A stretch of 64,000 nucleotides of DNA from a virus (IMGVR_UViG_3300025645_000067:2949-66948); one strand, 5' to 3'. Positions 26,801-45,119 are shown, counted from the stretch's first letter. Numbers and translations are program-made. Notes: a model not told the origin generated them from the letters alone.

Positions 26801-26992
26801 ATGCAGAAAGTTAGTATAAATGCTCCTAATGAGTATCATCTAAATAAAATATACGCAATACTCCATGCTTTAGATATACCTTATAAATTCGATGGTAAAA
26901 CTATAATTACTTTCGATAAACCAAAAAGGCTTAGTGAGTCTAATATCAAAGCTATATTTAGTGGTTATATTTTTAAAATTATCAAGATATGA
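26801..26992 (+). CDS. hypothetical protein
   Basis: 63 aa; stop overlaps the next start (ATGA). Confidence 0.6.
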   Translation: MQKVSINAPNEYHLNKIYAILHALDIPYKFDGKTIITFDKPKRLSESNIKAIFSGYIFKIIKI

Positions 26993-27969
26993 AAATAGCA
27001 GTATTCACCGACCCACACGTACACAACTACAAGCAATTCAATATTGACGATTCGAGATTAGATAATAGCATCTCCGCTATTAATGAAGTTTTCTTCTATT
27101 GTGAAAAGAATAATATTAAGTCAATCCTTTTTTGTGGTGACTTATTCCACAATCAAAAATTATTGCCTACAGTAGCAGTAAACAAGATTACACATTTATT
27201 TAAATACTGGGAGCATAGGGGTATTGAGTTTATAGCGATTAGTGGGAATCATGATTTTGCTACTAAGAGCCTATATGATAATGGTGAGTATACAGGACAA
27301 AGTGCTTTAGTCCATCTATATCACTCTATATCTTATTTTACCTTGCTGGATGGTAAGGCAGTAGTATTAGAGGGAGCTAACAATATAGTATGTTTTGGAA
27401 TACCTTATTTAGACTACCCAGAACATTTTACAGATGCGGTAGAACATTTGTCAGAAAGTACAAATGATACTGATTTCAATATCTTACTAATCCACCAGAC
27501 ACCTAGCGGATTAATTGATTTTGATATTCCTTTTGATTGTGACCCTAATTCTAAAATATTTGATAAATTTGATTTAATATTATGTGGGCATATTCATATA
27601 AAGAGGAAGTTAAACGATAAATTTCATTTAGTTGGTAACTTACTGCCTCAAAACTTTGGGGATAACCAAGATGCAGGTTTTATACTTCTTGATATTGAGG
27701 ATGATTTTGGTAGTTCTGTTGGTTATGAATTTATACCTTTGAATTACCCAAGATTTGAAAAGGTATTAGAAGGAGAGCAGCCGACCCACTCTAAAAACTA
27801 TATAAAAATTATTCCTAAGATTACTAGTAAGTTAGATTTAGGAGATAAGGGAGATATAGCAGATTTCCAAGTAAATCTAACTAAGCAGGAGCTAGTAAAA
27901 AATTATTGGACAGCAGTTGATGGACAAGATAAAGAACTATTAGAAATTGGACTTAAATTTATTTCATAA
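26989..27969 (+). CDS. SbcD/Mre11 (T4 gp47-like) nuclease
   Basis: DPH, GDLFH, GNHD, GHIH metallophosphoesterase motifs. Confidence 0.92.
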   Translation: MKIAVFTDPHVHNYKQFNIDDSRLDNSISAINEVFFYCEKNNIKSILFCGDLFHNQKLLPTVAVNKITHLFKYWEHRGIEFIAISGNHDFATKSLYDNGEYTGQSALVHLYHSISYFTLLDGKAVVLEGANNIVCFGIPYLDYPEHFTDAVEHLSESTNDTDFNILLIHQTPSGLIDFDIPFDCDPNSKIFDKFDLILCGHIHIKRKLNDKFHLVGNLLPQNFGDNQDAGFILLDIEDDFGSSVGYEFIPLNYPRFEKVLEGEQPTHSKNYIKIIPKITSKLDLGDKGDIADFQVNLTKQELVKNYWTAVDGQDKELLEIGLKFIS

Positions 27970-27986
27970 CTTTTAAACTGAAAAAT

Positions 27987-28814
27987 ATGTCTACTGAAAA
28001 AGGCACAAGAAAAGACAGCTACAAAGTATTACCTGAAAACATCAAGATTAGGGAAGGATTCAATATTAGAATTGATTATGGGAATATAGAGGAGTTAGCA
28101 CAATCCATCTTAGAAAATGGTGTAAAAGTACCTCTAATAGCTATGTGGATAGCTAAAGATAATTATTGGTTATTAAATCAAGGTCATCGGAGATTAAAAG
28201 CGGTACAACTATTGCATTCTAGAGGGCATACAGATGTAAGATTACCTGTATTACCAGAGCCTAGGAAGTATGAAGATTCCGACCGCTACTTTGATATGAT
28301 TACTACCAATAGCGGTAAGAATTTAACTATATTGGAAGAGGCTTATGTCTACCAAAAATTATCAGAGTTAGGTACGTTGGATGCCGATATTGCTAGAAGG
28401 GTGGGTAAGAGCCATACTCACATTGTAAACTGTAGTATTTTATTAACTGCTTCTGATAGTACCCAGCAAATGGTGATAGATGGTAAGGTAGCAGCTACTA
28501 CAGTATTAGACATGCTAAAGAACGGAGGTACACCAGAGGAGGTGGAGTATACTTTAAAGCATACGTTAGAAACTACAGGTAAAGATAAGGTTACCAAGAA
28601 ACACATTGAACCGAAAAAGGAAAAGGCTAAACCTACTGTAGATGAAAAATCATTAGAGTGGGTATGGAGCAAAGTAGTAGAAGAAGAACAAGCAGGTACT
28701 AAGATTGATGAGTGGTCTAAATATTTCCTTAAGCGAATTTGGGAATACCAAGCAGGGGATATTAACCTAGCTGAATTAATGAATGATTTAGTAGAGGGAG
28801 AGATAAATGATTAA
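27987..28814 (+). CDS. ParB/Spo0J-like protein
   Basis: FNIR...ELAQSILENG...GHRRLKA; HTH IARRVGKS. Confidence 0.85.
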   Translation: MSTEKGTRKDSYKVLPENIKIREGFNIRIDYGNIEELAQSILENGVKVPLIAMWIAKDNYWLLNQGHRRLKAVQLLHSRGHTDVRLPVLPEPRKYEDSDRYFDMITTNSGKNLTILEEAYVYQKLSELGTLDADIARRVGKSHTHIVNCSILLTASDSTQQMVIDGKVAATTVLDMLKNGGTPEEVEYTLKHTLETTGKDKVTKKHIEPKKEKAKPTVDEKSLEWVWSKVVEEEQAGTKIDEWSKYFLKRIWEYQAGDINLAELMNDLVEGEIND

Positions 28815-30708
28815 ATTTGTAAGTATTACAGTCGAGGGGTTTGGTTCAATATGTAACCAGACCCGATTCGATTTTACTAATGGTTTGCATATTATAAAGG
28901 GGCACAATGGAGCAGGTAAAACTACTATTTTTAATGCTTTATATTGGTGCTTGTTTAAGGATACTTTGAAAAATGTAAACCTTAGTAAAATTCCTACTTG
29001 GGCAGATAATAGAACAGAAAATTACAGGGGTACTAGAGTAGTTTTAATATTGAGCATAGATGGAACTACCTACATGATTGCTAGACATTATAAATTTAAG
29101 GGTAAGACTAAGGGCATTAAATATGGTAGTGAGGTAGTAGTACTAAAACATACGGATGCAGGTTTTACAGATGTAGGAGAAAAATACAAAAAAGACATTC
29201 AGATTTATATAAATACATTGTTAGGTTTTGATAAGAGTATTTTCCTAAATTCTGTTTTGTTTGGTCAAAGGCTAAACCGCTTTACCTCTCTAAAGGATGC
29301 AGAGAAGAGAGTATTTTTTGAAGGTATCTTTGAACTAGAGTTTGTAGGACAAGCCAAAGAGAAAGCGGTATTAGTTCAAAGCGAGCTATTTGAGGAGATT
29401 GATTTAATAGATAGGAAATGTGAGAAATTGGAGCACAAGAGAAAAATGATATTACAACGTATTGAAGATTCAAAGGAGGCAGAAGATAGATTCCTATTAG
29501 ATTTGAGTGAGAGGAGAGAAAAGATACAAGCTAAACTTACTTTAAACCAACAGAAATGGGATACTTGTTCTAAAGAACTGACTGTACTAAATGTACAGCT
29601 ATCACAGTTACCAGAGCTTCAAGATTATTCTAATTTGACCAAGGCTAGAGCAAAACAAGATAAGTTATATAGAGAGGTTTCAAAAGAAATAAACCAAGTA
29701 ACCTCAGATATTAGGAATGGTGAAAATACTATTGATACATCAAATAGGAATATAGCCAAACATCAAAAAGTATTAGATTCTGATCATAAATGCGGTGCTT
29801 GTGGTCAACCACTCAAAAAGGAGGATATTACAAGTATCAAAAAGGAGGCTATAAAGAAAATTAAATTGGAGGAGCAAGCACAAGAGATTGTTAGGAATAT
29901 GATTGAATCTTGTAAAAAAATATTACCTAACTATATACAAAAGAGGAGTAATTTTGAAACCGAAATTAAATCCATTAATACAGATATTAACGAAATAGAA
30001 AATCTAAAAAAGAGGCATAGTGATTTAGATTACAAGATTCATAATAAGACTAGTGATATAGCTAATTTAAAATTGAATGTTGAATTGAATAAAGATGATT
30101 TATTCGAGTTAGAAACCAGAAAATTTAAAGGTATTGATATTGCACCCTTAACTGTAGAGTTATCCACCATCAAGGATAAGTTAGAAACTTATCAATTAGA
30201 GCATAGCCAGCATTGTTCCAAGCATAAGAAAATTGGTTGGTGGATTAAAAAGGGTTTTGGCTCATCTGGTTTAAAGTCTTTTGTTTTTCAATCCATGTTA
30301 GGTAAGTTAAATTCTTACATTTCTAATTATGCAGTAGTGTTGGGATTCAATGTGACCTTTGGTATCGACTTTTCTAAGGATTCCAAACCATTTACCACGT
30401 CAATCACTAAAAACAATATTATCGTTGATTACAATGAGCTCTCAGGCGGTCAAAAGCAACGAATTGATATAGTTATTGCCTTTGCTATACATGATTTGAT
30501 TTCTCAAACATCTAATGTTAATATTTTAATCTTAGATGAATGTTTTACTGATTTGGATGCAGAGGGTATAGAACTTATTTTTGAACTGGTAGCTATGAAA
30601 AATAAGCAGTCAGTTTATGTTATCACTCATAGAGAGTATTTGGATATTTTGAATGCTAATATAATTGAAGTATCTTTGGATGGTAACAATAACACTATAA
30701 TAAATTAA
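28807..30708 (+). CDS. SbcC/Rad50 (T4 gp46-like) ATPase
   Basis: GHNGAGKTT, coiled coil, CGACGQ zinc hook, LSGGQ, ILDE. Confidence 0.95.
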   Translation: MIKFVSITVEGFGSICNQTRFDFTNGLHIIKGHNGAGKTTIFNALYWCLFKDTLKNVNLSKIPTWADNRTENYRGTRVVLILSIDGTTYMIARHYKFKGKTKGIKYGSEVVVLKHTDAGFTDVGEKYKKDIQIYINTLLGFDKSIFLNSVLFGQRLNRFTSLKDAEKRVFFEGIFELEFVGQAKEKAVLVQSELFEEIDLIDRKCEKLEHKRKMILQRIEDSKEAEDRFLLDLSERREKIQAKLTLNQQKWDTCSKELTVLNVQLSQLPELQDYSNLTKARAKQDKLYREVSKEINQVTSDIRNGENTIDTSNRNIAKHQKVLDSDHKCGACGQPLKKEDITSIKKEAIKKIKLEEQAQEIVRNMIESCKKILPNYIQKRSNFETEIKSINTDINEIENLKKRHSDLDYKIHNKTSDIANLKLNVELNKDDLFELETRKFKGIDIAPLTVELSTIKDKLETYQLEHSQHCSKHKKIGWWIKKGFGSSGLKSFVFQSMLGKLNSYISNYAVVLGFNVTFGIDFSKDSKPFTTSITKNNIIVDYNELSGGQKQRIDIVIAFAIHDLISQTSNVNILILDECFTDLDAEGIELIFELVAMKNKQSVYVITHREYLDILNANIIEVSLDGNNNTIIN

Positions 30709-35823: not shown

Positions 35824-36236
35824 AACCTGTAATGTTTGAAGGCTGTAATGCGGAAATAGCCAAAAATCAACCGCAATTTAAAACCCTACCTGCTATGGCT
35901 ACCATAGGTACTACTTTTTCCTGTTGGGAACTATCTCAAAAGGAGATAGAAAGAGTTTTAAAAACTAAGAAAATTTGGGTGAATCAAATTAATGGCGGTA
36001 AGCCGATGCAGCCGATTTGTCTGACTAGTGAGAATTTGCTTACTGTATCTAAGGAGGGAGGCGATTGTATTTGTAAGAATTGTGGAGATATAGTAACGTT
36101 AATAAAATTTAACCCTAAGGATTATAAGTATTGGGCTTGTCCTACCTGTAGGCATACTAATGAAATAATCTTAAGAAGGGGCAAGAAAAATAAATTTGTT
36201 AGTTGGTTAATAAAATCATTAGTCAAGTTTCTTTGA
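35820..36236 (+). CDS. hypothetical protein with Zn ribbon
   Basis: NQPQFKTLPA...SCWELS..E..RV; CKNC...CPTC. Confidence 0.7.
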   Translation: MKPVMFEGCNAEIAKNQPQFKTLPAMATIGTTFSCWELSQKEIERVLKTKKIWVNQINGGKPMQPICLTSENLLTVSKEGGDCICKNCGDIVTLIKFNPKDYKYWACPTCRHTNEIILRRGKKNKFVSWLIKSLVKFL

Positions 36237-36262
36237 ACGGTACAATAATTTATGTATTATTG
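36232..36262 (+). promoter_or_regulatory. Bacteroidota-type promoter
   Basis: TTTG-N19-TATTATTG. Confidence 0.45.
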
Positions 36263-36294
36263 TATCAATTAATCAATCATAAAAATCTTTTAAA

Positions 36295-36819
36295 ATGAAA
36301 TCAGCAAAGCAATTAGGCTTTTTATTTATAGGCTTGTCCTTTTTATTCCTACCTTTTGGGGGCAATAGTCAAGAACCTCTTACAAAAGATACTGAGCCTA
36401 AGACAGAGGCAGCACAATTAAAAATAGCTATGCAGCCTACAGCAGACCCTACATTAGAAGAAGCTATAGACGCTTTAAGGGGCGGTGATATATCTGCTAC
36501 TTCTTATGTATACGAAGGACTATTAGCCTTATTTACTTTTCTAAGTGGTCTTTTATTAAAGTGGTTTAATATAAAGTGGCAGTTGCCTAGTATAGCTTTA
36601 CCGTTAGTAGTTGTAGCTATCATAAGTATTGGAGTCGTAGTATCCCTAGGTTTAGCTAATGCCTTACCTGCTCTCTTATCGGTCTTGTCAACAAGTGGAA
36701 TATTTGGACTGTTAAAAGGTATCAATAAATTTACTAAACCTACCGAAACTACTAATGATAAATTACAAAGCTTGGAGAGACAAACTTTAGAATTAAAACA
36801 AAGTCTAGGCATAGCATAG
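36295..36819 (+). CDS. membrane protein with signal peptide (holin or superinfection-exclusion candidate)
   Basis: Signal peptide ending GNS-Q, three hydrophobic segments; has its own promoter and terminator. Confidence 0.65.
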   Translation: MKSAKQLGFLFIGLSFLFLPFGGNSQEPLTKDTEPKTEAAQLKIAMQPTADPTLEEAIDALRGGDISATSYVYEGLLALFTFLSGLLLKWFNIKWQLPSIALPLVVVAIISIGVVVSLGLANALPALLSVLSTSGIFGLLKGINKFTKPTETTNDKLQSLERQTLELKQSLGIA

Positions 36820-36840
36820 TAGTATTTTCCATATTAAATT

Positions 36841-36878
36841 AAATGGGGGATAGGTAAAGTACCTCATCTCCCATTTTT
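36841..36878 (+). terminator. intrinsic terminator
   Basis: aaatgggggat...atctcccattt followed by T. Confidence 0.65.
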
Positions 36879-36899
36879 AATTAAAAATAATTGAATAAG

Positions 36900-37556
36900 A
36901 TGATAAACTTAAATCCTTTTGGTTTTACATTACTAGAAATTACCTTGACTGATATTAAGGCTAATGTTAAAAACCCTAGAAAAATAAATGCTAGAGAGAA
37001 AAAAGAATTAAAGGCAAGTATCAATAAGTTCGGTCTTATTGATAAACCGATTTTAAACAAACAAAATAAGGATAAAACCTATGATTGTATAGGTGGTCAT
37101 CAAAGACTTGATTTATTAAAACAGGCAGGAGTAGAAACCTGTCTTTGCTATGTACCCACCAAAAGATTAAGCCAGCCAGAAGTAGAGGAGCTATTATTGA
37201 GAGTTAATAAAAATACTGGTACATTCGATAATGATTTGTTAAGGCAGAACTTCAAAGCAGAAGATTTATTAGCTCATGGTTGGGCTAAATCAGAGCTAGA
37301 CAATATTTTCATTAAAATTGATTTGGACACCAAGGAGGCATCCTACCCAATTGTGCCTAAGATGGGAGAAAAATACGGGTGTATCATCATTGTTTATGAA
37401 AGTGATGTAGAAGAAGCCAGCCTAAGGACCATATTAAATACTGCTAGGGCAAAAGATTATAAATCTAATCGTGTTGCAGAGTCCTCAGTAATTACCTTTG
37501 ACCACTTCCAAAAAGCTATAAATGAAAGAATTACCTTTAATAATATTGAGTCATAA
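36900..37556 (+). CDS. ParB/Srx N-terminal domain protein
   Basis: NPRKI...LKASINKFGLIDKPILN...IGGHQR...N..G.FD.DLL. Confidence 0.85.
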   Translation: MINLNPFGFTLLEITLTDIKANVKNPRKINAREKKELKASINKFGLIDKPILNKQNKDKTYDCIGGHQRLDLLKQAGVETCLCYVPTKRLSQPEVEELLLRVNKNTGTFDNDLLRQNFKAEDLLAHGWAKSELDNIFIKIDLDTKEASYPIVPKMGEKYGCIIIVYESDVEEASLRTILNTARAKDYKSNRVAESSVITFDHFQKAINERITFNNIES

Positions 37557-38277
37557 AAGAGCAGACAGGGTAGATACTTTGAAAATTGTATCTAACTGCT
37601 CTATATGTATTCCAGAAAGTCAGGCAAAGGATTATAAACACTTTAATCCTAATACGCCTTTAATCGTTCACCCAGACGATGTAAGAGGGCTAACAGCTAA
37701 AATTAAATGGGTATATGATTTGTACCCTAATGTAGTAATGTTAGACGATGACCTTAATAAATTCAATAGAAATTTCGTAGACGACACCTTTGAGTTAGGG
37801 CAGCATGTAGATGACCCAGATTTAGTTTATGAGATTATACAGCATACAGGGTGGATAGCGGAGCAAATGAAAGTCAAGCTTTTTGGTTTTGCGGCTAATG
37901 CTGTACCTGTAACCTATCAATCTCATAACCCTTATAAATTAAGCGGTTTTGTAATTGGTGGGATATTTGGTTTATTAGAAGGATTCCGTTTGGATATAAT
38001 GCCCGAAGATTCTACAGCAGCTTGTGATTATTTTATTAGTGGTATTAGTGCTTACTTTGAAAGAAAATGCTTATTAAATAATAGGTATGCAGTTACCTCT
38101 AAAGAGGGTACATTTAAAAGTAAGGGAGGTACAGCCGACTATAGAACTCCAGACACCGAAAAAAAAGATCTCCAACTTTTAAAGGAATACTTTGGGGATG
38201 CCATAGTAAGAAAGAAACCGTCAAGGGTAAGAAAGGAATTATACGAATGGGAAAAAACTCTCAAAATTCCATTTTAA
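37522..38277 (+). CDS. GT-A glycosyltransferase, TAGT/GREB1-like
   Basis: IIILSHKRA...IPESQAKDY...VVMLDDDL...CDYFIS...KGG. Confidence 0.7.
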   Translation: MKELPLIILSHKRADRVDTLKIVSNCSICIPESQAKDYKHFNPNTPLIVHPDDVRGLTAKIKWVYDLYPNVVMLDDDLNKFNRNFVDDTFELGQHVDDPDLVYEIIQHTGWIAEQMKVKLFGFAANAVPVTYQSHNPYKLSGFVIGGIFGLLEGFRLDIMPEDSTAACDYFISGISAYFERKCLLNNRYAVTSKEGTFKSKGGTADYRTPDTEKKDLQLLKEYFGDAIVRKKPSRVRKELYEWEKTLKIPF

Positions 38278-38302
38278 TTTTTAAACTAAAAATAATTGGT
38301 TA

Positions 38303-38884
38303 ATGAGTAACAAGGCATTTTATTTAGACAAGTTAAAAACAGAAGTAAACCCAGTTAAAAAAGTAGGGTGGGATAATGTAGAACGTGCTCAACTAAGGTA
38401 TGAGCATACAGCAGGACAATTAAGATATTTGGGATGTACCTCAGTATTAGATTATGGTTGTGGTATTGGAGGGCTTTATAAATATGTGAAGAATGACATG
38501 TACTATGTAGGTTACGATATTGTAGAGGAGTATAAACAAGATTTACTTATCCCATCAGAGCAATTTGTAACCAAGTTTCCTTATACCTCAGTATTCGATG
38601 CCTCAGTTTTATTAGGTACGTTTACACTAAACAAGGAGGAGTTAAGCAATGATGCTTTTTTTGCGGAGTTTGCTAAGGTTATAGAAAATAATATAACTTC
38701 TAATACAGATTATTTAGTTATGACTGGATTCCATGAAGGAGTAGATAAAAAAGACCCCAAATTATACTACTTCAATATAAATCAACTAGTTAAATATTTG
38801 CATTCAATTGGTTATGTAGATATTAAAATAACTTTTCCTATTTCTCCTTATGAAATATTCCTAAAAGCTAAACTTTCTTTGTAA
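38303..38884 (+). CDS. class I SAM-dependent methyltransferase (small-molecule / sugar type)
   Basis: VGW...AQLRY...SVLDYGCGIGGL...YVGYDI...GTF. Confidence 0.85.
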   Translation: MSNKAFYLDKLKTEVNPVKKVGWDNVERAQLRYEHTAGQLRYLGCTSVLDYGCGIGGLYKYVKNDMYYVGYDIVEEYKQDLLIPSEQFVTKFPYTSVFDASVLLGTFTLNKEELSNDAFFAEFAKVIENNITSNTDYLVMTGFHEGVDKKDPKLYYFNINQLVKYLHSIGYVDIKITFPISPYEIFLKAKLSL

Positions 38885-38890
38885 AAAACT

Positions 38891-38921
38891 TTTTATAATT
38901 ATAAAATAATCGTATCTTTAC
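38891..38921 (+). promoter_or_regulatory. promoter cassette copy 4 (perfect palindrome)
   Basis: TTTTATAATTATAAAA-N6-TATCTTTAC. Confidence 0.8.
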
Positions 38922-38956
38922 TTTAAATATTAAATAACTGAATAACTGAAAAATTT

Positions 38957-39595
38957 ATGGCACAGTACTTGAACTTAGAGTCTGGAAAAAATTTCTTTGT
39001 AGTATCTTCTTTATTTCAAAAATCCATTAGGAGAGGATTAGAGGAAGAAGCTATATGGTGTGCGAGTGAGTTTTACATCTCAGGGTATGCTAATTATGCT
39101 TGGAAGAGGATGTTAATTATGGTATCGGAGGATGTAGGTTTAGCCAATCCACAATTACCACAGCAAATGAGTAGCTTGTATGAATTGTACACCACTTTAA
39201 AAAGTATGAAAGATAAGGGGCTACCAGAAAAACTACCTTTCGTACAAGCAGTATTAATGTTAGTACGTTCTCCTAAATCTCGATTGGTAGATAATAAGTT
39301 ATGTGCTTATTTCGACTGTAGAGAGGAGATGGAAGAGCCAAACTTTCAAGATTTTAAAAAGTACGATTGGGTTTACGACATGCACACCAGTAGAGGCAAA
39401 AGATTAGGAAGAGGGAATAAACACTTTTTTGAGGTAGCAGGGCATATTGAAAATGATAACTTACAAGAAGTACCAGACGAATATAAATTTAGGGATTTTG
39501 TGGCTAAACTCTATGAGAAAAAGGACGAGGCAGAAAAACAACAGGTGAAGGTTAGAAAGAGTAATCAGACTACACTTGATTTAACCGATGATTGA
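38957..39595 (+). CDS. stand-alone RarA/MgsA C-terminal-like domain protein
   Basis: SLFQKSIRRG...WKRMLIMVSEDVGLANP...LVRSPKSR...DMHT..G; no Walker A/B. Confidence 0.75.
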   Translation: MAQYLNLESGKNFFVVSSLFQKSIRRGLEEEAIWCASEFYISGYANYAWKRMLIMVSEDVGLANPQLPQQMSSLYELYTTLKSMKDKGLPEKLPFVQAVLMLVRSPKSRLVDNKLCAYFDCREEMEEPNFQDFKKYDWVYDMHTSRGKRLGRGNKHFFEVAGHIENDNLQEVPDEYKFRDFVAKLYEKKDEAEKQQVKVRKSNQTTLDLTDD

Positions 39596-39605
39596 AACAT
39601 TTATT

Positions 39606-39740
39606 CCCCTCCCATTTGGGGCATTAAGCAGCCTGACATTTATTTGTCAGGTTGCTAATGTGTAAAGAAGGTAGGCGATACGTTGTATCGTCATAGTGCG
39701 GTGTATCCCTAGTCAGAGATGATTAGGGGTACTCTTTATT
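39606..39740 (+). ncRNA. candidate structured RNA (three hairpins)
   Basis: Stems 39627-38/39645-56, 39674-81/39685-92 and 39703-15/39720-32 (GAGA loop); G-U pairs favour the + strand. Confidence 0.45.
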
Positions 39741-39752
39741 AAAAAAGAAATT

Positions 39753-40412
39753 ATGTGGCATGATAAATCAGTATTGGTAGTGGTAGCTCATCCAGACGAT
39801 GTGGTTTTAGGATGCTCAGGTTTAATATGTAAACTAAAATCTTTGGGCTGTACTATCCATCTTTGTTATCTTAGCGGAGGCTATAATGGAAGAGCTAAGA
39901 GAACCAAGATGGAAAGTTACGTAGAGACAGTAGCCAATAGATTAGGAACAACTAGTTTTGAAATATTAGATTTCCAATCTTCTAAATTTGACCAATACCA
40001 TCAAAGCGTTTTGAATGATGCTATATATGGTGCTATTGTGCGTACTAATGCGGAGATAGTATTAACCCATGATAGTAACGACCTTCACAATGACCATTTA
40101 ATGGCTTTTAAGGGGGTTATGGTTGGATGCCGATACAAACCGACCTCTACAGTAAAACAAGTCCTTACATTTCCTGTAATTAGCTCTAGTGACATTTCCC
40201 CTACCTATAAATTCAAGGCAGACCTCTACACCGATATAACCGAGTACATTGATTTTAAATGTAATTTGATGAAGGTATATAAAGAAGAATTTGAAGCTAT
40301 GCCTAAAAAGAGGGGAGGAGAGCATATTAAAATACATGCAGCTTATTGGGGAAGTCACATTAATGTAGACTATGCAGAACCTTTTAAAATAATTAGGTTA
40401 ATCCTAAACTAA
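39753..40412 (+). CDS. PIG-L/LmbE family N-deacetylase
   Basis: VLVVVAHPDD, DLHNDH, YAEPF. Confidence 0.9.
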   Translation: MWHDKSVLVVVAHPDDVVLGCSGLICKLKSLGCTIHLCYLSGGYNGRAKRTKMESYVETVANRLGTTSFEILDFQSSKFDQYHQSVLNDAIYGAIVRTNAEIVLTHDSNDLHNDHLMAFKGVMVGCRYKPTSTVKQVLTFPVISSSDISPTYKFKADLYTDITEYIDFKCNLMKVYKEEFEAMPKKRGGEHIKIHAAYWGSHINVDYAEPFKIIRLILN

Positions 40413-40769
40413 GTATAATGCTAACAATAATTTTAATAAGTATATTTAGGAAAGACTACCAAAAGACTAAGACTATCATCTCAGGAGAGTTGCACCTAAT
40501 TATAATTTTATTTTTGACAGCATTATTCATTGATATATTTTGTTTATCCCTTATCCCATGCTAATATTAACTTTGTCCATAATTATAGTAGGTAGCGGTA
40601 TATACGCTGACACTAAAAAACAAATAACCAATGGTAATAAATTTACAAGATGACATTTATTGCGTTTGTATCCCTTCTTTTGATACAAGTACTGTTTATG
40701 TTTGTCCTAATTGTAACACTAGTTTTATACTAAAAACTAATAATTTAGTAACAATCAGAATTAAAAATA

Positions 40770-41252
40770 ATGAAAGTACCTAAAAGATTAACAGAAGATT
40801 TAATAGCAGTAGCTAAAGACCCCTGCACTAAACAGGAGGCATTAAACTTATTCAAAAAGAATAAGATTATCTTAACTATTAAAAAGATAATGAAGGATAT
40901 AAGCTTAGTTAGGAAGGAAGGAGATGAAATAAAAACCCTTCTCCACAAGAATAGGGAACAAGAATTAAAAATGGAGGCTAAGTTAGAAGAGACAAAACAA
41001 AAATTAACCTACCTAGCCAAGTACCGCTTAGGAGATACCGTATTTATTAAAAATAAATACGGTTGGGGAGGTGGATACCTAAAAGGTAAGGTATCCAAAG
41101 TATGTGCTACAGTACCTTTAGATAAATTGACTTTTATGTATAAAGTCAATAAGGTATTAAAAAATGGGGGCATGGGCAAATATGCTATAGAGCATAGTTA
41201 TAAGAATTATAAAGAAGAGGAGTTATATCCAACAGACCCACAAAACAAGTAA
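40770..41252 (+). CDS. hypothetical protein
   Basis: 160 aa; coiled coil, then KYRLGDTVF SH3-like end. Confidence 0.65.
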   Translation: MKVPKRLTEDLIAVAKDPCTKQEALNLFKKNKIILTIKKIMKDISLVRKEGDEIKTLLHKNREQELKMEAKLEETKQKLTYLAKYRLGDTVFIKNKYGWGGGYLKGKVSKVCATVPLDKLTFMYKVNKVLKNGGMGKYAIEHSYKNYKEEELYPTDPQNK

Positions 41253-41253
41253 T

Positions 41254-42063
41254 ATGAAATTAGATCATAAAGGAGCTAAGATATACGAGAACCTAGGGGA
41301 TGTACCTACTTATGATTCAACACCCAAAAAAGTGTTTATATCCCAACCAAGATACCTACCTAATCTATCTTATCTCAAAAAGATATTAGATTCAGACATC
41401 TTTATTATACTGGATGATGTACAGATAAACAAGAGAGCCTACCAGCATAGGAATAAGATGGTAAGAAAAGGACACCTACCCAAATGGTTAACTATCCCAT
41501 TAGCTACAGGTAATAGAGAGGAGATAAGGAGTAGTATGATAGAAAAGACTTTTAGCTTTAATCTCCATTTTAATACAATTGATAATTGGTACAAACCTAT
41601 AAAGGGCGGTTATGATGATACTTACTATTTAGAGTACATGAATTACCTCTCTTCTATCTTAGAGGATGATGATAATCATAATTTAGGAGAAGTATTAGCT
41701 TTTGGATTACATAGGTTACTAACCGATTTAGGATATAAAGGAAAGGTAGTATACTCCTCAGATTTATCTCAAATTATTAATGATAGGCTAGGAATTATTG
41801 TTCAGGGTAAACAAAAACTAATGTTACTTTGTAGAGAAGTGTATGGTAATGGTTTAATAGTGGGAACAGGAGCAGCAGATTATGGATTGACTGCTAATTA
41901 TGGTAATTTGTATAATATTGACGTAGATTTAAGAGATTATGAGGTAAAGGGGTACGAAGGAACACCAGAGCAGCATTTACCATTTGCCCACTTTGAATTG
42001 ATTGGGGAAAATGTAAAAGATTTGCTAGAGAATAAAATGATTAATTATGGAATTAAAAGATAA
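41254..42063 (+). CDS. WbqC-like protein
   Basis: QPRYLPNLSYLKKILDSDIFIILDDVQ...QHRNK...WLTIP...SSDL...KLMLLC...GTGAADY. Confidence 0.85.
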   Translation: MKLDHKGAKIYENLGDVPTYDSTPKKVFISQPRYLPNLSYLKKILDSDIFIILDDVQINKRAYQHRNKMVRKGHLPKWLTIPLATGNREEIRSSMIEKTFSFNLHFNTIDNWYKPIKGGYDDTYYLEYMNYLSSILEDDDNHNLGEVLAFGLHRLLTDLGYKGKVVYSSDLSQIINDRLGIIVQGKQKLMLLCREVYGNGLIVGTGAADYGLTANYGNLYNIDVDLRDYEVKGYEGTPEQHLPFAHFELIGENVKDLLENKMINYGIKR

Positions 42064-42565
42064 GGACGGCAAGATAATTAGTAATAGAGGTAACCGTACA
42101 GGTAATAGAGTAAGTGATATTGAGATTATAGAGAGGATAGGTGCTGTATATCAAGGACTTATGAAAGGTTGGTCAAGAACTAAATTAATTCAGTATGGTT
42201 CAAATGTATGGGGTGTAGGTACTAGACAGGTAGATAATTACATTAAAAGAGCTAGGGGTATTGTGCTTGGGGAGGTTACTAAAAACATGGTTTATGATTA
42301 TAAGTTAGCCATACTCAGGTTAACTGAATTATACTCAAAAGCGCAAGCAGAAAATAACTATTTAGCTTGTAGATTTATTTTAAACGATTTACACAAGATT
42401 CAAGGTCTTTACACAACTAAGGTTCATGTACAAATTGACGGTGAAGTAAATGTAACGCATGAGTTAGCCAAGAAATCTCCAAAAGAGTTGAAAGACCACA
42501 TTAGAAAGTTACGAGCAGCTAACAAAAAGCGTAGAAAAGAGCTAGGTTTACCTGACATAAAGTAA
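42047..42565 (+). CDS. terminase small subunit (putative)
   Basis: HTH WGVGTRQVDNYIKRAR; L.KIQGLY; directly upstream of the large terminase. Confidence 0.65.
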   Translation: MELKDKDGKIISNRGNRTGNRVSDIEIIERIGAVYQGLMKGWSRTKLIQYGSNVWGVGTRQVDNYIKRARGIVLGEVTKNMVYDYKLAILRLTELYSKAQAENNYLACRFILNDLHKIQGLYTTKVHVQIDGEVNVTHELAKKSPKELKDHIRKLRAANKKRRKELGLPDIK

Positions 42566-42665
42566 CTATAAATATTTTTGGTACTACATGAGTGGGGGGG
42601 GTAGACTAAGGTATTGGTAATCAAGTGTTTAGAAAAATCGTATTTTTACTAGAAAATAAGTTAAA

Positions 42666-44333
42666 ATGGTTACTAAAGATGAGACATTACAGCAGATAGA
42701 GCAGGACTTAGCAGCAGCCTTAGAATATGAGTTTATAGATGAGCAAAAGAAGTATTGGCAATTACATCCTATCAAGTGGTTATCAGAACGTTTTGGGGAA
42801 GAGGAGTATTTTGCGGAGTGGTCACAATTACCAGAGTATAAGAAACACGAACACGATGGAGATAAAGACCCTTTAGCGCAAGCATGGCGTTCTTTAGCAG
42901 CTAGGGAATGGACATCAATACAAGCAGCTACAGCTACAAGTAAGACTTTTATGGCGGCTAGGATTGTACTTTGGTTTTTAGATTGTTTCCCCAACTCCTT
43001 AGTTGTAACGTCTGCACCTAAGGAATCTCAATTAAAATTACACCTTTGGGCAGAGATAGGTAAGATATTCCCCAAGTTCAAGAAATTAAATCCAAAAGCA
43101 AAACTTTACTCCTTACGTTTAGTAATGGATGATACCGATGTAAATACGGTGGAGGAGGATGTAGCTAATTCAGCATGGCAAGCAGTAGGATTTGTTTGTG
43201 GTACAGGAGCAGATGAGCAATCAGCAACAAAAGCGCAAGGATTCCATAGAGAGGACATGCTCATCATAACCGAAGAAACTCCCGGGATGAATAAGGCAGT
43301 TTTGACAGCTTTTGAAAATACCTCAACTGGTGACAATAACCTAATTTTGGCGATGGGTAACCCAGATAGTGAGTTTGATACTTTGGGGCAATTTAGTAAG
43401 TATTCAAATGTAAACTCCTTTAGAATTTCAGCGTATGACTATCCTAATGTAGTCTGTAAGGATTCTAGTCTAATGGCAGGTGCAGTCACCCAAACTAGTA
43501 TAAATAGAAGAGCCTTGATGTACGGAGAGGAGTCTGGTTTATTTAAGTCAAGGGTAAGAGGACTATTTCCAAAACAATCAGAAGATAGTTTAATTAAGTA
43601 TGAGTGGGTAGAAAGGTGCGTTGATGCTGATCCATTAGATTCTAATGATGCTGATGTAAAAAGAGATTTACGACCTTCTTACAATGCTGTAGGGGTAGAT
43701 GTAGCTAATTCGGCAACAGGAGATAAAGCGGCTCTAGCTTGGGGGGAAGGACATTGCCTAATGAAGATTGTAGAATTTCAATGTACTAATGCTAACCATT
43801 TAGCTTATAATTTAATTTATACCTCAGAGCAATTAGAAAAGAATAATTGGACTGATTATGATACGGCAACAATAACCGATTATGATGTAATGCCCGAAAT
43901 GATAGGAGTGGATAGTAATGGTTTAGGTATAGCTACTCTTAATACTCTAATGGATTTCCCATGCAATTGTTACCCAGTACCCCTACATGGTGGAACATGG
44001 AAGGAAGTCATCCCAGAAGATGAAGGAGGTAGACCTATGTATAAATTCCAAACCTTAAGAGCACAAATGTATTGGGAGGCTAGAGAGGATTTAAGAAAAG
44101 GGCTAATAGGTATTTTTATTAGCGACCCATCAGTATTGCTACAGTTGAAAAAGGAGTTATGTATACCGAAATTTTGGGTGAAGGATACTTATACAGTAGT
44201 GGAGAGTAAGGAAGCTATTAAAAAGAGGCTAGGCGGTAAATCTCCTAACTTAGCAGATGCCTTTATTTATTGGAATTGGACAAGGAAGGGGTATAGATTT
44301 GAAATGGAAGCTCCTATAGCAGGAGGTATTTAA
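42666..44333 (+). CDS. terL: terminase large subunit
   Basis: Variant Walker A AATATSKT, IITEE, MGNP, GVDVA, SPNLADA. Confidence 0.92.
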   Translation: MVTKDETLQQIEQDLAAALEYEFIDEQKKYWQLHPIKWLSERFGEEEYFAEWSQLPEYKKHEHDGDKDPLAQAWRSLAAREWTSIQAATATSKTFMAARIVLWFLDCFPNSLVVTSAPKESQLKLHLWAEIGKIFPKFKKLNPKAKLYSLRLVMDDTDVNTVEEDVANSAWQAVGFVCGTGADEQSATKAQGFHREDMLIITEETPGMNKAVLTAFENTSTGDNNLILAMGNPDSEFDTLGQFSKYSNVNSFRISAYDYPNVVCKDSSLMAGAVTQTSINRRALMYGEESGLFKSRVRGLFPKQSEDSLIKYEWVERCVDADPLDSNDADVKRDLRPSYNAVGVDVANSATGDKAALAWGEGHCLMKIVEFQCTNANHLAYNLIYTSEQLEKNNWTDYDTATITDYDVMPEMIGVDSNGLGIATLNTLMDFPCNCYPVPLHGGTWKEVIPEDEGGRPMYKFQTLRAQMYWEAREDLRKGLIGIFISDPSVLLQLKKELCIPKFWVKDTYTVVESKEAIKKRLGGKSPNLADAFIYWNWTRKGYRFEMEAPIAGGI

Positions 44334-44342
44334 AAAACTATT

Positions 44343-45119
44343 ATGACTACTTTTATAAAATTTCTTCTATATTTGTACGGACTTCTTAATATAGAAAAGC
44401 CTACTACTATAGAAGAGGATAACAAGCCAGTAGAATTTATTGAGCCTACTCATTCAGATGAGGATGAGATAAGACAAGGAGATGATACTAAGGTTAAGGC
44501 TGGTTACTTGTGGCATCTAGATTCAGGGCATGGAGAAATGACTTTAGGTAAACGTTCTCCAAAGTTCCCAGATGGTTCAAGGTTCTATGAATGGGAGTTT
44601 AATAGAGATATAGTAGAACTGGTATCACAAGGATTACAAGAAAGGGGTATAAGCTTTAATATAGTAGTACCAGAAAATAGGGAAGGCTCTAATGCTTATG
44701 TAGGCAATATCCTAAAAGAACGAGTAAGGAGAGCCAATACTTTTGTATCGGATAAAACCCAAGTATTCTTATCCATCCATGCTAATGCTTATGGTGATGG
44801 AGTGAGATTTACAAGTGCTAGAGGTATCGAGACATGGATACATCATGGTAATGAGTTAGCTAGGAGGGTAGGACAAATATTCCAGACCCATTTACTAAAT
44901 GCCTATGATACAAGGGATAGGGGTATTAAGAGTAAAGAAAATAAACAGTTTTATGTGCTAAGGAATACCAACATGTTAGCTATTCTACTAGAGTGTGGTT
45001 TTTATACTAACTTGGAGGAGTGCAGTCTATTAAGGTCAAAAGAAGTAAAGATGGAGATAGCCTTCGCTATAGTTAAGGCTATTACCAAAATAGAGATAAA
45101 CGGATTATATCAAGTATAA
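44343..45119 (+). CDS. N-acetylmuramoyl-L-alanine amidase (Amidase_3), endolysin
   Basis: LDSGHG, YE, LKERV..AN, LSIHANA, YVLRNT...ILLECGFYTN. Confidence 0.93.
   Translation: MTTFIKFLLYLYGLLNIEKPTTIEEDNKPVEFIEPTHSDEDEIRQGDDTKVKAGYLWHLDSGHGEMTLGKRSPKFPDGSRFYEWEFNRDIVELVSQGLQERGISFNIVVPENREGSNAYVGNILKERVRRANTFVSDKTQVFLSIHANAYGDGVRFTSARGIETWIHHGNELARRVGQIFQTHLLNAYDTRDRGIKSKENKQFYVLRNTNMLAILLECGFYTNLEECSLLRSKEVKMEIAFAIVKAITKIEINGLYQV

What the first reader, a model, noticed from the sequence alone, without database searches (positions are those of the whole stretch)
36900..42063. Putative sugar-hypermodification pathway beside the terminase: ParB-N, TAGT glycosyltransferase, SAM methyltransferase, PIG-L deacetylase, WbqC
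Seen: these five genes, plus a RarA-C-like gene, lie co-oriented directly upstream of terS/terL. Known: TAGT/GREB1-like GT-A enzymes are linked to DNA base glycosylation, and ParB-N proteins often accompany phage DNA-modification loci near terminases. PIG-L enzymes de-N-acetylate N-acetyl sugars. WbqC proteins come from O-antigen/glycan loci and are proposed glycyl transferases. Inference: a pathway of HexNAc transfer, then de-N-acetylation, then N-glycylation and/or methylation, giving an amino-acylated sugar on DNA (anti-restriction) or on virion/secreted proteins. No TET/JBP, C5-methyltransferase or hydroxymethylase is visible in the window, so the acceptor is unexplained and could be new. 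I do not know of this combination as a described phage system.
Basis: partly seen in the sequence, partly recalled or inferred. Interest (0 to 1): 0.85.

Follow-up and report, generated by a model that had tools for sequence, protein, structure and literature searches.

The report
Terminase-side ParB-docked sugar-tailoring gene module
A freshwater phage carries, just before its DNA-packaging genes, a conserved gene set that looks built to attach an amino sugar to a target, most likely its own DNA, and then trim and redecorate it, although the phage has none of the enzymes known to prepare DNA for such sugars.

Summary
The genes are linked by more than adjacency. ParB-N and TAGT sit side by side in 77 of 80 IMG/VR loci and 36 of 38 bacterial-genome loci, and an MgsA_C-like gene follows in 61 and 32. 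A reverse scan seeded on PIG-L finds WbqC in 44 of 80 loci and TAGT in 40 of 80, in two different gene orders. So the RarA-C-like gene belongs to the core, and methyltransferase, PIG-L and WbqC are an accessory set. TAGT models as a GT-A fold with the R/DDD/DY motifs of phage DNA glycosyltransferases. PIG-L keeps its metal and catalytic residues. A complex model docks an unnamed C-terminal domain of the ParB-N protein onto TAGT (ipSAE 0.61, best control 0.00). No ThyA-like or Tet/JBP gene was found in the contig or in 45 related records. My best reading, at confidence 0.45, is a late, ParB-guided HexNAc transfer to DNA, then de-N-acetylation and N-decoration, on an unknown acceptor. Virion-protein glycosylation is not excluded. 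A similar cluster sits before terL in Stenotrophomonas phage DLP3, whose DNA resisted 15 of 15 restriction enzymes.

The parts
36891..37556 (+). ParB-N (ParB/Srx CTPase-fold) protein, 221 aa, with an unnamed conserved C-terminal domain (about residues 150-215). The true start may be the ATG at 36900. Its end overlaps the TAGT start by 35 nt.
   Evidence: Pfam ParB_N 3.5e-8. Alignment A5 of 44 sequences: N28, G69 and R72 (the GxxR box) are nearly invariant, and a C-terminal 'EYPIVP..EKY..IIV..NE.D' block is conserved. Only ParB_N matches in Pfam, in 15 of 44 members. The gene sits next to TAGT in 77 of 80 loci and 36 of 38 loci.
37522..38277 (+). TAGT-family GT-A glycosyltransferase, 251 aa
   Evidence: Pfam PF20691 and phrog_842. 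In alignment A6, D76 is invariant and R13, D75, D77 and D169 are nearly invariant. AF2 model pLDDT 92.7, pTM 0.90. Foldseek PDB gives 27 hits at E<=1e-3, including WrtF (TM 0.52), TarP (0.45) and K4CP (0.49). BFVD gives TAGT-domain proteins at TM 0.72-0.78, including a beta-glucosyl-HMC-alpha-glucosyltransferase.
38303..38884 (+). Class I SAM-dependent methyltransferase, 193 aa (accessory)
   Evidence: phrog_3382 6.8e-5. A VLDxGCGxGG stretch aligns to a solved methyltransferase; that this is SAM motif I is recalled. Protein atlas score 0.96 and TM 0.86-0.88 to Methyltransf_11/25 clusters. Directly follows TAGT in 11 of 80 loci and occurs in 16 of 80 PIG-L-seeded loci.
38957..39595 (+). Stand-alone MgsA/RarA C-terminal-domain homologue, 212 aa (core member)
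   Evidence: Pfam MgsA_C 1.9e-9. Profile A3 hits PDB 2r9g at 2e-14 and RarA 3pvs at 1.6e-9. Thirteen invariant residues across 48 sequences. Present in 61 of 80, 32 of 38 and 41 of 80 loci.
39753..40412 (+). PIG-L/LmbE-family de-N-acetylase, 219 aa (accessory)
   Evidence: Pfam PIG-L 2.3e-19. PDB 1uan at 2.6e-9 and diacetylchitobiose deacetylases. Closest NCBIfam model is BshB1 at 7.3e-17, below its cut-off. H13, D15, D16, D110, D114 and H115 are invariant in 11 of 11 sequences.
40413..41253 (+). Lineage-specific insert between PIG-L and WbqC, holding orf50 (40631-40783) and orf160 (40770-41252). Probably not part of the pathway.
   Evidence: No Pfam, PHROG or NCBIfam hit. The protein atlas gives only scores of 0.80-0.82. 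No tblastn match in 80 + 38 loci. In relatives PIG-L and WbqC abut or overlap.
41254..42063 (+). WbqC-family protein, 269 aa (accessory); catalytic activity unknown
   Evidence: Pfam WbqC 3e-23. 2394 relatives at E<=1e-3 among 1.84 billion representatives, the best at 36% identity. AF2 model pLDDT 84.6, pTM 0.85. No PDB fold match at E<=1e-3. Lies beside PIG-L in 44 of 80 PIG-L-seeded loci.
42047..42565 (+). Putative small terminase subunit, named from position only
   Evidence: No Pfam hit; phrog_34910, of unknown function, at 2.6e-4. It overlaps the WbqC end and precedes terL.
42666..44333 (+). Large terminase subunit
   Evidence: tblastn to annotated terminases of Arthrobacter and Clostridium phages: 110 records, about 25% identity, best E-value 2e-26. 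51% identical to the terL-like ORF of L081.

Best explanation
This is a terminase-adjacent glycosylation module, so probably expressed late, whose most likely target is the phage's own DNA after replication. The core has three proteins. The first is a ParB/Srx-fold protein with no recognised DNA-binding HTH. The second is the TAGT GT-A glycosyltransferase, which the ParB-like protein is predicted to hold through its own C-terminal domain. The third is a stand-alone MgsA/RarA C-terminal domain of unknown role. By analogy with ParB-like activators of phage thymine dioxygenases, the ParB-like protein would bring or activate the transferase on DNA. In this clade the transferred sugar is probably an N-acetylhexosamine taken from a host UDP-sugar. 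The PIG-L enzyme would then remove the N-acetyl group. The freed amine would be modified by the SAM methyltransferase, the WbqC-like enzyme, or both. Shown here: gene identities, the GT-A fold, retained catalytic residues, co-occurrence in two gene orders, and a passed complex model. Inferred: DNA as target, HexNAc as sugar, the order of steps, and what WbqC adds. The acceptor in DNA is unknown, because no hydroxymethyl- or hydroxy-pyrimidine-forming enzyme was found.
For: 1) Linkage. ParB-N sits beside TAGT in 77 of 80 IMG/VR loci (57 of 80 by tblastn) and in 36 of 38 bacterial-genome loci. MgsA_C-like follows in 61 of 80 and 32 of 38. Of 80 loci seeded on PIG-L, WbqC is present in 44, TAGT in 40, MgsA_C in 41 and ParB-N in 38. 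Two gene orders recur: ParB-TAGT-MT-MgsA_C-PIG-L-WbqC and PIG-L-WbqC-ParB-TAGT-MgsA_C-terL. 2) TAGT has a GT-A fold with R13, D75-D77 and D169-Y/F. These are the R...DDD...EDY/F motifs reported for phage GT-A enzymes that put Hex, HexNAc or heptose on 5hmC (preprint passages). The T6 TAGT is proposed to add a second glucose to glucosyl-hmC DNA (passage). 3) The complex model supports ParB-N binding TAGT: ipSAE 0.61, best of 3 controls 0.00. That mark was reached by 58 of 80 solved complexes and 2 of 110 mismatched pairs. The runs agree in at least 74% of contacts and the partner pLDDT is at least 69. My own alignments were used, so these counts hold only roughly. The interface is the conserved C-terminal domain of ParB-N. 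4) Precedent: ParB-like proteins lacking a DNA-binding domain activate phage T-dioxygenases on dsDNA (abstract and passages). 5) The module sits before terminases of at least three Pfam types plus the window's own, so before different packaging and head genes. This fits a universal substrate such as DNA. Genes inserted in the same slot elsewhere are N6_Mtase-like (14 loci), a DUF4942/MTS methyltransferase, and an ArdC-N-like protein. 6) PIG-L keeps H13, D15, D16, D114 and H115 in 11 of 11 sequences. GT+WbqC+LmbE also form one operon with ProRSx and tRNA-ProX in a published figure legend. PIG-L lies within 15 kb of 13 of 72 WbqC genes in 60 Bacteroidota genomes. This is a hand tally with 58 PIG-L rows unlisted; rough expectation is about 2. 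7) TAGTs linked to PIG-L/WbqC form one clade (6 rows, SH-aLRT 99). 8) Cultured analogue: Stenotrophomonas phage DLP3 has PIG-L, WcaG, WecE, a methyltransferase, a GT and ParBc directly before terL. Its DNA resisted 15 of 15 restriction enzymes (passage). It has no ThyA, Tet_JBP or TGT match.
Against: There is no direct evidence that DNA is modified. No enzyme that makes a known acceptor was found. Tet_JBP matched 0 of 45 related records, but the control rang nowhere, so that negative is weak. ThyA matched 0 of 45 with a working control. Two generic 2OG-oxygenase families matched 0 of 5 records. G001, a 36.5-kb record rated 100% complete, showed no polymerase or nucleotide-metabolism family among the 25 Pfam families listed for its 40 other ORFs. 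TAGT-domain enzymes can act on proteins: GREB1 O-GlcNAcylates ER-alpha (abstract). The closest solved GT-A folds act on glycans or teichoic acid. HexNAc as donor is inferred only from the PIG-L neighbour. The ParB-N protein has no recognised DNA-binding domain. The window's contig is rated 79% complete, so a gene could be missing. In the tree, labels shared by close kin inflate the clustering. DLP3's GT has a different annotation and does not match the TAGT profile, and its resistance to restriction has not been tied to this cluster.
Confidence: 0.45

Rival explanations
1. The module glycosylates phage proteins, such as virion or packaging proteins, with a tailored amino sugar. The ParB-like protein serves only as a scaffold for the transferase.
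For: GREB1, whose glycosyltransferase domain belongs to the TAGT family, O-GlcNAcylates a protein (abstract). The module lies at the head of the structural and packaging block. No DNA acceptor-forming enzyme was found. Virion glycosylation by phage GTs with methyltransferases is known in mycobacteriophages and chloroviruses; this is recalled and comes from no call.
Against: The module is joined to at least four unrelated terminase types, and so to different packaging and head genes. A protein substrate would have to be conserved across them. Its constant partner has the ParB CTPase fold, whose known roles in these papers are on DNA. Neighbours in the same slot are DNA methyltransferases and an ArdC-N-like gene.
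Confidence: 0.2
2. It is an ordinary DNA hypermodification on 5hmC, 5hmU or 5hoC. The hydroxylating enzyme is present but too divergent for the family models, lies on the missing part of the contig, or is supplied by the host.
For: The PNAS 2026 paper reports thousands of contigs found by phage 5mYOX profiles that lack a TET/JBP Pfam annotation (passage). My Tet_JBP search had no positive control. The contig is rated 79% complete. Three window ORFs of 247-312 aa have no hit in any family library used.
Against: 0 of 18 related records rated at least 90% complete has Tet_JBP or ThyA. Generic 2OG-oxygenase models matched 0 of 5 records with controls ringing. G001 (36.5 kb, 100%) holds the full module and nothing resembling such an enzyme among the 25 Pfam families listed for its other 40 ORFs. 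The conserved core across more than 100 loci contains no candidate oxygenase.
Confidence: 0.15
3. The genes remodel a host glycan or make a small glycoconjugate during infection, for example a bacillithiol- or mycothiol-like GlcN conjugate or a cell-envelope sugar. They do not modify a phage macromolecule.
For: The closest NCBIfam model to the PIG-L gene is the bacillithiol deacetylase BshB1 (7.3e-17, below cut-off). WbqC genes are common in Bacteroidota genomes, in 60 of 121, and are reported from O-antigen and EPS loci (passage). TarP, a prophage wall-teichoic-acid GlcNAc transferase, is among the solved structural neighbours. Many carriers are proviruses.
Against: The genes sit in the terminase-proximal block, not in a lysogeny or moron position. 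They are translationally coupled to a ParB-fold protein predicted to bind the transferase. No membrane, export or NDP-sugar synthesis genes accompany them in the window.
Confidence: 0.1
4. The accessory genes (methyltransferase, PIG-L, WbqC) are unrelated passengers that happen to lie near a ParB-TAGT pair.
For: They are absent from most ParB-TAGT loci (69 of 80). 24 of 80 PIG-L-seeded viral loci have none of the other genes.
Against: PIG-L, WbqC, ParB-N, TAGT and MgsA_C recur together in two different orders and beside different terminases. PIG-L/WbqC-linked TAGTs form one clade.
Confidence: 0.05

Closest known systems
Phage GT-A (TAGT/JGT-like) DNA glycosyltransferase gene clusters acting on 5hmC (Pyle et al. 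preprint 10.1101/2023.12.21.572611, passages read) and the TAGT of T6-like phages, proposed to add a second glucose (PMC13390438, passages read)
   Same: Same Pfam family, the same GT-A fold, and the same R...DDD...(E)DY/F motifs. Neighbours of the kinds listed in the preprint: ParB-like, terminase, epimerase and methyltransferase genes.
   Different: No C5-methyltransferase, 5mYOX/TET or ThyS-like gene in this contig or in 45 related records. A constant MgsA_C-like partner. Amino-sugar tailoring genes PIG-L and WbqC, which returned no phage paper in my searches.
ParB-dependent phage thymine dioxygenases (5mYOX + ParB-like activator; PMC13229309, abstract and passages read)
   Same: A short ParB-fold protein with the nucleotide-binding domain and a C-terminal domain but no evident DNA-binding domain, encoded next to a DNA-modifying enzyme in a phage. 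Here a complex model supports binding to the neighbouring enzyme.
   Different: The partner is a glycosyltransferase, not a dioxygenase. The C-terminal domain matches no Pfam family. No activation has been tested.
GT, then PIG-L/LmbE-type deacetylase, then N-substitution pathways: bacillithiol (BshA/BshB/BshC), mycothiol (MshA/MshB/MshC) and Nod factor (NodC/NodB/NodS/NodA). These pathways are recalled and come from no call.
   Same: The same chemical logic: transfer GlcNAc, remove the acetyl group, then put a new group on the amine. The PIG-L gene is nearest to BshB1 among NCBIfam models. One atlas structural neighbour of the methyltransferase aligns to the NodS family (a lead only).
   Different: The transferase is a GT-A TAGT, not a GT-B (GT4) or GT2. 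The enzyme in the third position is a WbqC-family protein of unknown activity. The acceptor is not a small molecule as far as the context suggests.
Bacterial ProRSx-GT4-WbqC-LmbE-tRNA(ProX)-murG operon (PMC10404621, Figure 2 legend only)
   Same: A glycosyltransferase, a WbqC protein and an LmbE/PIG-L deacetylase in one operon.
   Different: The bacterial operon also carries an aminoacyl-tRNA synthetase and a tRNA. The window has no tRNA gene and no synthetase. The GT families differ.
Stenotrophomonas phage vB_SmaS_DLP_3 (MT110073) genes 096-106
   Same: PIG-L deacetylase, a methyltransferase, sugar-modifying enzymes, a glycosyltransferase and a ParB-like protein directly before terL. ParBc matches my ParB-N profile at 2e-19, and its PIG-L is 24% identical at 6e-8. 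Its DNA resisted 15 of 15 restriction enzymes (passage). No ThyA, Tet_JBP or TGT match.
   Different: [quoted passage not shown] There is no MgsA_C-like or WbqC match. It has WcaG and WecE instead. Its modification chemistry is unknown, and none of the 11 listed titles on its genus concerns DNA chemistry (listing only).

Membership tests
TAGT (PF20691) glycosyltransferases | Matches the family model above the curated cut-off | tested here: met
   41.5 bits against a cut-off of 27.5. All 16 metagenomic relatives carry PF20691.
TAGT (PF20691) glycosyltransferases | GT-A fold with a DxD-type motif | tested here: met
   AF2 pLDDT 92.7. PDB GT-A and NDP-sugar-transferase hits. BFVD TAGT proteins at TM 0.72-0.78. 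D75-D76-D77 conserved.
TAGT (PF20691) glycosyltransferases | Genomic association with a TET/JBP dioxygenase, or with a thymidylate-synthase-type hydroxymethylase | tested here: not met
   0 matches in the contig and in 45 related records. The Tet_JBP search had no positive control.
TAGT (PF20691) glycosyltransferases | Transfers sugar to a modified base in DNA | not testable with these tools
   Needs nucleoside mass spectrometry or an enzyme assay.
PIG-L/LmbE de-N-acetylases (PF02585) | Family match plus the AHPDD and (H)xDH metal and catalytic residues | tested here: met
   70.6 bits against a cut-off of 28.2. H13, D15, D16, D114 and H115 invariant in 11 of 11 sequences. Aligned to 1uan and 3we7. 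The roles of these residues are recalled.
Bacillithiol deacetylase BshB1 (TIGR04001 equivalog) | Score above the equivalog cut-off | tested here: not met
   61.8 bits against a cut-off of 182.5. It is similar to BshB1 but is not a BshB1.
WbqC family (PF08889) | Matches the family model above the cut-off | tested here: met
   83.2 bits against a cut-off of 21.3. 2394 relatives at E<=1e-3.
   No solved fold relative. The only paper passage I read on its function calls the domain uncharacterised.
ParB-dependent DNA-modification systems (ParB-like activator + enzyme) | ParB nucleotide-binding fold with the box II arginine, and no HTH | tested here: met
   ParB_N hit. G69 and R72 nearly invariant. 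ParB_N is the only Pfam family, so no HTH_ParB.
ParB-dependent DNA-modification systems (ParB-like activator + enzyme) | Physical or functional coupling to the neighbouring enzyme | tested here: inconclusive
   The complex model passes (0.61 against 0.00), the genes overlap by 35 nt, and adjacency holds in 77 of 80 loci. There is no experiment.
ParB-dependent DNA-modification systems (ParB-like activator + enzyme) | The partner is a 5mYOX dioxygenase | tested here: not met
   The partner is a GT-A. No Tet_JBP or generic 2OG-oxygenase match.
MgsA/RarA AAA+ proteins | AAA+ ATPase domain followed by the MgsA_C domain | tested here: not met
   Only the C-terminal domain is present in a 212-aa protein. 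It is a domain homologue, not a RarA.

The most novel reading that the evidence does not exclude
The ParB-docked TAGT glycosylates ordinary, non-hydroxymethylated DNA directly, on a base, the backbone or a packaging-generated end. The MgsA_C-like protein helps. PIG-L, the methyltransferase and WbqC then turn the HexNAc into an N-substituted hexosamine. This would be a DNA modification route that needs no TET, ThyA-like or transglycosylase step. It would be spread among temperate and virulent phages of Bacteroidota and beyond.
Probability: 0.25. Interest if true: 0.92.

Novelty: new variant of a known kind. Interest (0 to 1): 0.72.

Why it matters
[quoted passage not shown] Here a DNA-type glycosyltransferase family travels with a ParB-fold partner through more than a hundred phage and prophage loci that lack any recognisable way of making such a hydroxyl. 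One preprint had set aside about 65% of its roughly 25,000 GT contigs as less likely to act on DNA for that same reason. If these modules do act on DNA, the known chemistry of viral DNA modification is incomplete. Tools that predict restriction or CRISPR evasion from genomes would then miss a common class. If they act on proteins, the result is a ParB-fold adaptor for a glycosyltransferase, which is also new. Either way the question is testable, with five or six small genes that can be co-expressed and with one cultured phage, DLP3, that has restriction-resistant DNA. It would also give a first functional context to the WbqC family and to the stand-alone MgsA_C domain.

Tried and rejected
- Megablast of 36000-45000 against cultured phages found no match.
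- tblastn of WbqC against cultured phages found no match. tblastn of PIG-L found one unannotated 4.9-kb record.
- Single-sequence scans of IMG/VR with WbqC and with TAGT found no relatives. The word-indexed search with WbqC found only the protein itself.
- Foldseek of the WbqC model against PDB gave 0 hits at E<=1e-3. The best rows (E 0.1-2, TM about 0.3) include class I aminoacyl-tRNA synthetases. I treat that only as a faint lead to a nucleotide-binding fold.
- The VIA-align libraries were not on the machine.
- orf160 stays unexplained, and I dropped it from the pathway because relatives lack it.
- No tRNA genes in the window.
- The promoter and terminator scan was not above chance: 39 promoter-like sites against 47.9 +/- 7.6, and 8 terminator-like against 5.8 +/- 2.1. 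I make no operon claim from it.
- Sequencing runs: 17 rows hold part of the stretch, 10 of them half or more of its words. All 10 are labelled freshwater metagenome and 5 are flagged as possible sources. Seven are RNA rows with shares of 0.07-0.51. I could not lay them because read laying was unreachable five times. I therefore claim no expression, and no habitat beyond the label.
- Iyer et al. 2013, which defined TAGT, is not held. What I say of it is recalled.
- Supplements are closed. Table S4 of the Pyle preprint and Dataset S10 of the PNAS 2026 paper may already list contigs of this kind.
- I considered and rejected reading the MgsA_C-like gene as the small terminase, because a separate HTH-type terS-like ORF follows it in 28 loci.
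- I considered and rejected reading TAGT as a sugar nucleotidyltransferase despite the CMP-KDO synthetase hits. TM scores are higher to true GT-A enzymes, and the viral matches are TAGT proteins.

Full report
WHAT IS THERE. The window is bases 2949-66948 of a single 66,948-base virus record, linear, rated 79% complete by CheckV. Nearly all long ORFs are on the + strand. The 2.9 kb outside the window holds a 506-aa and a 151-aa ORF. I read these as tail sheath and tube only from their place before the tape-measure gene. The rest of the genome shows a contractile-tail-type structural set and a replication block. These include a tape-measure protein, baseplate V and J, RadC, DUF932, an N6_N4 methylase, DnaB-like and primase-like proteins, an SF2 helicase, a UDG-exonuclease-PolA gene interrupted by an intein or endonuclease-like segment, Mre11/Rad50-like proteins, a second HTH-bearing ParB, a PD-(D/E)XK nuclease, RNase H and an SF1 helicase.

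The finding's genes are as described:
- ParB-N, 36891-37556
- TAGT, 37522-38277, overlapping the ParB-N end by 35 nt
- a 193-aa class I SAM methyltransferase, 38303-38884
- an MgsA_C-only protein, 38957-39595
- PIG-L, 39753-40412
- an 840-base insert with two unassignable ORFs
- WbqC, 41254-42063
- a positional terS, 42047-42565
- terL, 42666-44333

IS IT A UNIT? I searched IMG/VR with an alignment of TAGT relatives, which gave 80 loci. By blastp clustering of neighbouring + strand ORFs, a ParB-N-like gene lies directly upstream of TAGT in 77 of 80 loci, and an MgsA_C-like gene lies downstream in 61 of 80. By tblastn with the window proteins the counts are 57 and 61. The methyltransferase and PIG-L occur in 11 of 80 and WbqC in 10 of 80.

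In one-genome-per-species bacterial contigs, 38 loci were found. Most are in Cytophagales genomes such as Hymenobacter, Spirosoma, Larkinella and Flectobacillus. ParB-N is present in 36 of 38 and MgsA_C in 32 of 38. The nearest locus is L081, a 70-kb contig of a Flavobacterium MAG. It has the full set and a terL-like ORF 51% identical to the window's. That scan used only one peptide pattern, so its taxonomic spread is biased.

The reverse test seeded IMG/VR with a PIG-L alignment and used profile searches. Of 80 loci, WbqC is present in 44, MgsA_C in 41, TAGT in 40, ParB-N in 38 and the methyltransferase in 16. Twenty-four loci have none of them, and 12 have WbqC only. About 11 of these loci are the same contigs as in the first scan. 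A second order, PIG-L-WbqC-ParB-N-TAGT-MgsA_C-terL, recurs in at least a dozen new contigs. A Cloacimonadota MAG contig shows TAGT-PIG-L-WbqC-MgsA_C-terL.

The same genes therefore occur in three arrangements. The core is ParB-N+TAGT+MgsA_C. PIG-L+WbqC, with or without the methyltransferase, is one accessory set. Other clades carry an NAD-dependent epimerase/dehydratase (14 loci), an N6_Mtase-like gene (14 loci), an unknown 226-aa protein (18 loci), or an ArdC-N-like gene plus a DUF4942/MTS methyltransferase in the same slot.

On a TAGT tree of 47 rows, the PIG-L/WbqC-linked TAGTs form one clade of 6 (SH-aLRT 99), and 5 of 6 epimerase-linked ones form another. I left out 15 metagenomic proteins because their context is unknown. 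Close kin share labels, so this is weak support.

THE PARTS.
- TAGT. The AF2 model has pLDDT 92.7. Foldseek against PDB gives 27 hits at E<=1e-3 in the GT-A / NDP-sugar-transferase fold, including WrtF (TM 0.52), TarP (0.45), K4CP (0.49), COLGALT1 and CMP-KDO synthetases. Against viral models, TAGT-domain proteins match at TM 0.72-0.78, including a beta-glucosyl-HMC-alpha-glucosyltransferase. R13, D75-D77 and D169-Y/F are conserved. These correspond to the R...DDD...EDY/F motifs that a preprint reports for phage GT-A enzymes installing Hex, HexNAc or heptose on 5hmC, and for trypanosome JGT.
- PIG-L. H13, D15, D16, D110, D114 and H115 are invariant in 11 of 11 sequences. It aligns to solved LmbE-type deacetylases. 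It is nearest to BshB1 but far below that model's cut-off.
- WbqC. It is a clear but distant family member. A confident model (pLDDT 84.6) has no solved structural relative. Its chemistry stays open.
- MgsA_C-like protein. It is a true homologue of the RarA C-terminal region, with 13 invariant residues that are mostly charged or polar. That suggests a conserved binding or catalytic site of unknown role.
- ParB-N protein. It keeps the NPR and GxxR elements of the nucleotide-binding fold. It also carries a conserved C-terminal block of about 70 residues that matches no Pfam family.

PARTNERSHIP. The complex model supports binding of ParB-N to TAGT. It scored ipSAE 0.61, 0.63 and 0.61, with 0.00 as the best of 3 controls. 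That mark was reached by 58 of 80 solved complexes and 2 of 110 mismatched pairs. The runs agree in at least 74% of contacts, and the partner pLDDT is at least 69. I used my own alignments, so these counts hold only roughly. The contacts fall on ParB-N residues 150-200, which is exactly the unnamed conserved domain. This is the model's own confidence and not a measurement.

THE MISSING ACCEPTOR. No match was found in the contig for Thymidylat_synt, Tet_JBP or C5 DNA_methylase. Of 45 related whole records, 18 of them rated at least 90% complete and many of them proviruses, none has Tet_JBP. That control rang nowhere, so this negative is weak. None has Thymidylat_synt either, with the control ringing in 10 of 14 genomes. 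Two generic 2OG-Fe(II) oxygenase families and TGT/DpdA-type models also found nothing in the window's record, three complete relatives or DLP3. G001 is 36.5 kb, rated 100% complete, and carries the full module. Among the 25 Pfam families listed for its 40 other ORFs are DnaB, ERF, YqaJ, DUF932, portal, protease, a lysis-type peptidase and HTH proteins. There is no polymerase and no nucleotide metabolism among them. Pre-replicative base replacement is therefore very unlikely there. If DNA is the target, the module must act after replication on ordinary DNA, or on host-made marks.

WHY DNA IS STILL THE BEST GUESS.
1) The transferase family and its motifs are those of DNA glycosyltransferases.
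2) Its constant, probably physically bound partner has the ParB fold. A 2026 paper shows ParB-like proteins without a DNA-binding domain activating phage thymine dioxygenases on dsDNA. A 2025 survey finds phage ParB folds fused mainly to DNA methyltransferases and DUFs, and the word glycosyltransferase does not occur in its main text.
3) The module sits before at least four unrelated terminase types.
4) The slot also collects DNA methyltransferases and an ArdC-N-like gene.
5) Stenotrophomonas phage DLP3 has PIG-L, WcaG, WecE, a methyltransferase, a glycosyltransferase and ParBc immediately before terL. Its ParBc matches my profile at 2e-19. Its DNA resisted 15 of 15 restriction enzymes, and the type of modification is undetermined. 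It lacks ThyA, Tet_JBP and TGT matches.

None of this shows DNA modification. GREB1, an animal protein whose glycosyltransferase domain belongs to the TAGT family, glycosylates a protein, so protein glycosylation stays a live rival.

THE TAILORING LOGIC. GT, then PIG-L/LmbE deacetylase, then N-substitution is the logic of bacillithiol, mycothiol and Nod-factor synthesis; that is recalled. A GT4-WbqC-LmbE operon with a dedicated prolyl-tRNA synthetase and tRNA is drawn in a 2023 paper (figure legend only). That hints that WbqC may put an amino acid on the freed amine. The window has no tRNA gene. In 60 Bacteroidota genomes with WbqC, out of 121 searched, a PIG-L match lies within 15 kb of 13 of 72 WbqC genes, and 2 are directly adjacent. 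This is my hand tally; 58 PIG-L rows were not listed, so it is a lower bound. The rough chance expectation is about 2.

NOVELTY. The core association was partly seen before. The Pyle preprint lists ParB-like, terminase and epimerase neighbours of GT-A genes. It reports that about 65% of roughly 25,000 GT contigs lack a neighbouring 5mYOX or ThyS, and it calls these less likely to act on DNA. Three things turned up in none of my searches for WbqC, for phage + DNA hypermodification + deacetylase + glycosyltransferase, for PIG-L + bacteriophage + DNA modification, or for TAGT + ParB + glycosyltransferase:
- the ParB-N C-terminal docking domain
- the constant MgsA_C-like partner
- PIG-L+WbqC tailoring joined to a TAGT

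Supplementary tables that I could not open may list such contigs. I rate this a new variant of a known kind.

Noticed in passing
window 21035-25210: The family A DNA polymerase is in pieces. A 745-aa ORF carries UDG-like, 3'-5' exonuclease and PolA N-terminal parts, plus a weak Intein_splicing match at its end. A 325-aa ORF with a weak endonuclease-like match follows. Then a 341-aa ORF carries the rest of PolA (1.1e-44). It looks like an intein or homing-endonuclease insertion, or a split polymerase.
   Followed up: no
window 26989-30708: A second, canonical-type ParB (HTH_ParB + weak ParB_N, 27987-28814) sits between an Mre11-like phosphoesterase and an SMC/Rad50-like ATPase whose start overlaps its end. 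This is an odd place for a ParB.
   Followed up: no
window 40413-41253; L010 12496-13802: The junction between PIG-L and WbqC is an insertion hot spot. The window has orf50 and orf160 there, and L010/L011 have two other unassignable ORFs (152 and 284 aa). In most relatives the two genes abut or overlap.
   Followed up: partly
window 39703-39732: A 13-bp-stem hairpin followed by T-rich sequence lies between the MgsA_C-like gene and PIG-L. Terminator-like sites in the region are not more numerous than in shuffles.
   Followed up: no
window 44343-45119: An Amidase_3 (N-acetylmuramoyl-L-alanine amidase) gene lies directly after terL, inside the packaging and head block rather than in a lysis cassette.
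   Followed up: no
window 9688-10362; clusters in L006-L061: RadC-like JAB genes recur near the ParB-TAGT module in 17 of 80 IMG/VR loci, and one is present elsewhere in the window.
   Followed up: no
L017 2871-4327: Two TAGT paralogues in tandem. This recalls the sequential GTs that build di- or trisaccharides on DNA in the Pyle preprint.
   Followed up: no
L013 11328-13431: Between TAGT and the MgsA_C-like gene this provirus carries an ArdC-N-like ORF (8.1e-7) and a 552-aa DUF4942/MTS methyltransferase (4.8e-22). These are anti-restriction-flavoured cargo in the same slot.
   Followed up: partly
L070-L080 (e.g. L070 882-4119): In a distant group (TAGT about 25% identical), ParB-N and the TAGT-like gene lie immediately before a GpA-type large terminase, with no other small-terminase candidate between them and no MgsA_C-like gene.
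   Followed up: no
L148-L150, L153, L163, L188 and others: Twelve PIG-L-seeded loci, several on contigs of about 80-105 kb, have PIG-L and WbqC a few kb apart without TAGT, ParB-N or MgsA_C. The pair may serve other glycosyltransferases there.
   Followed up: no
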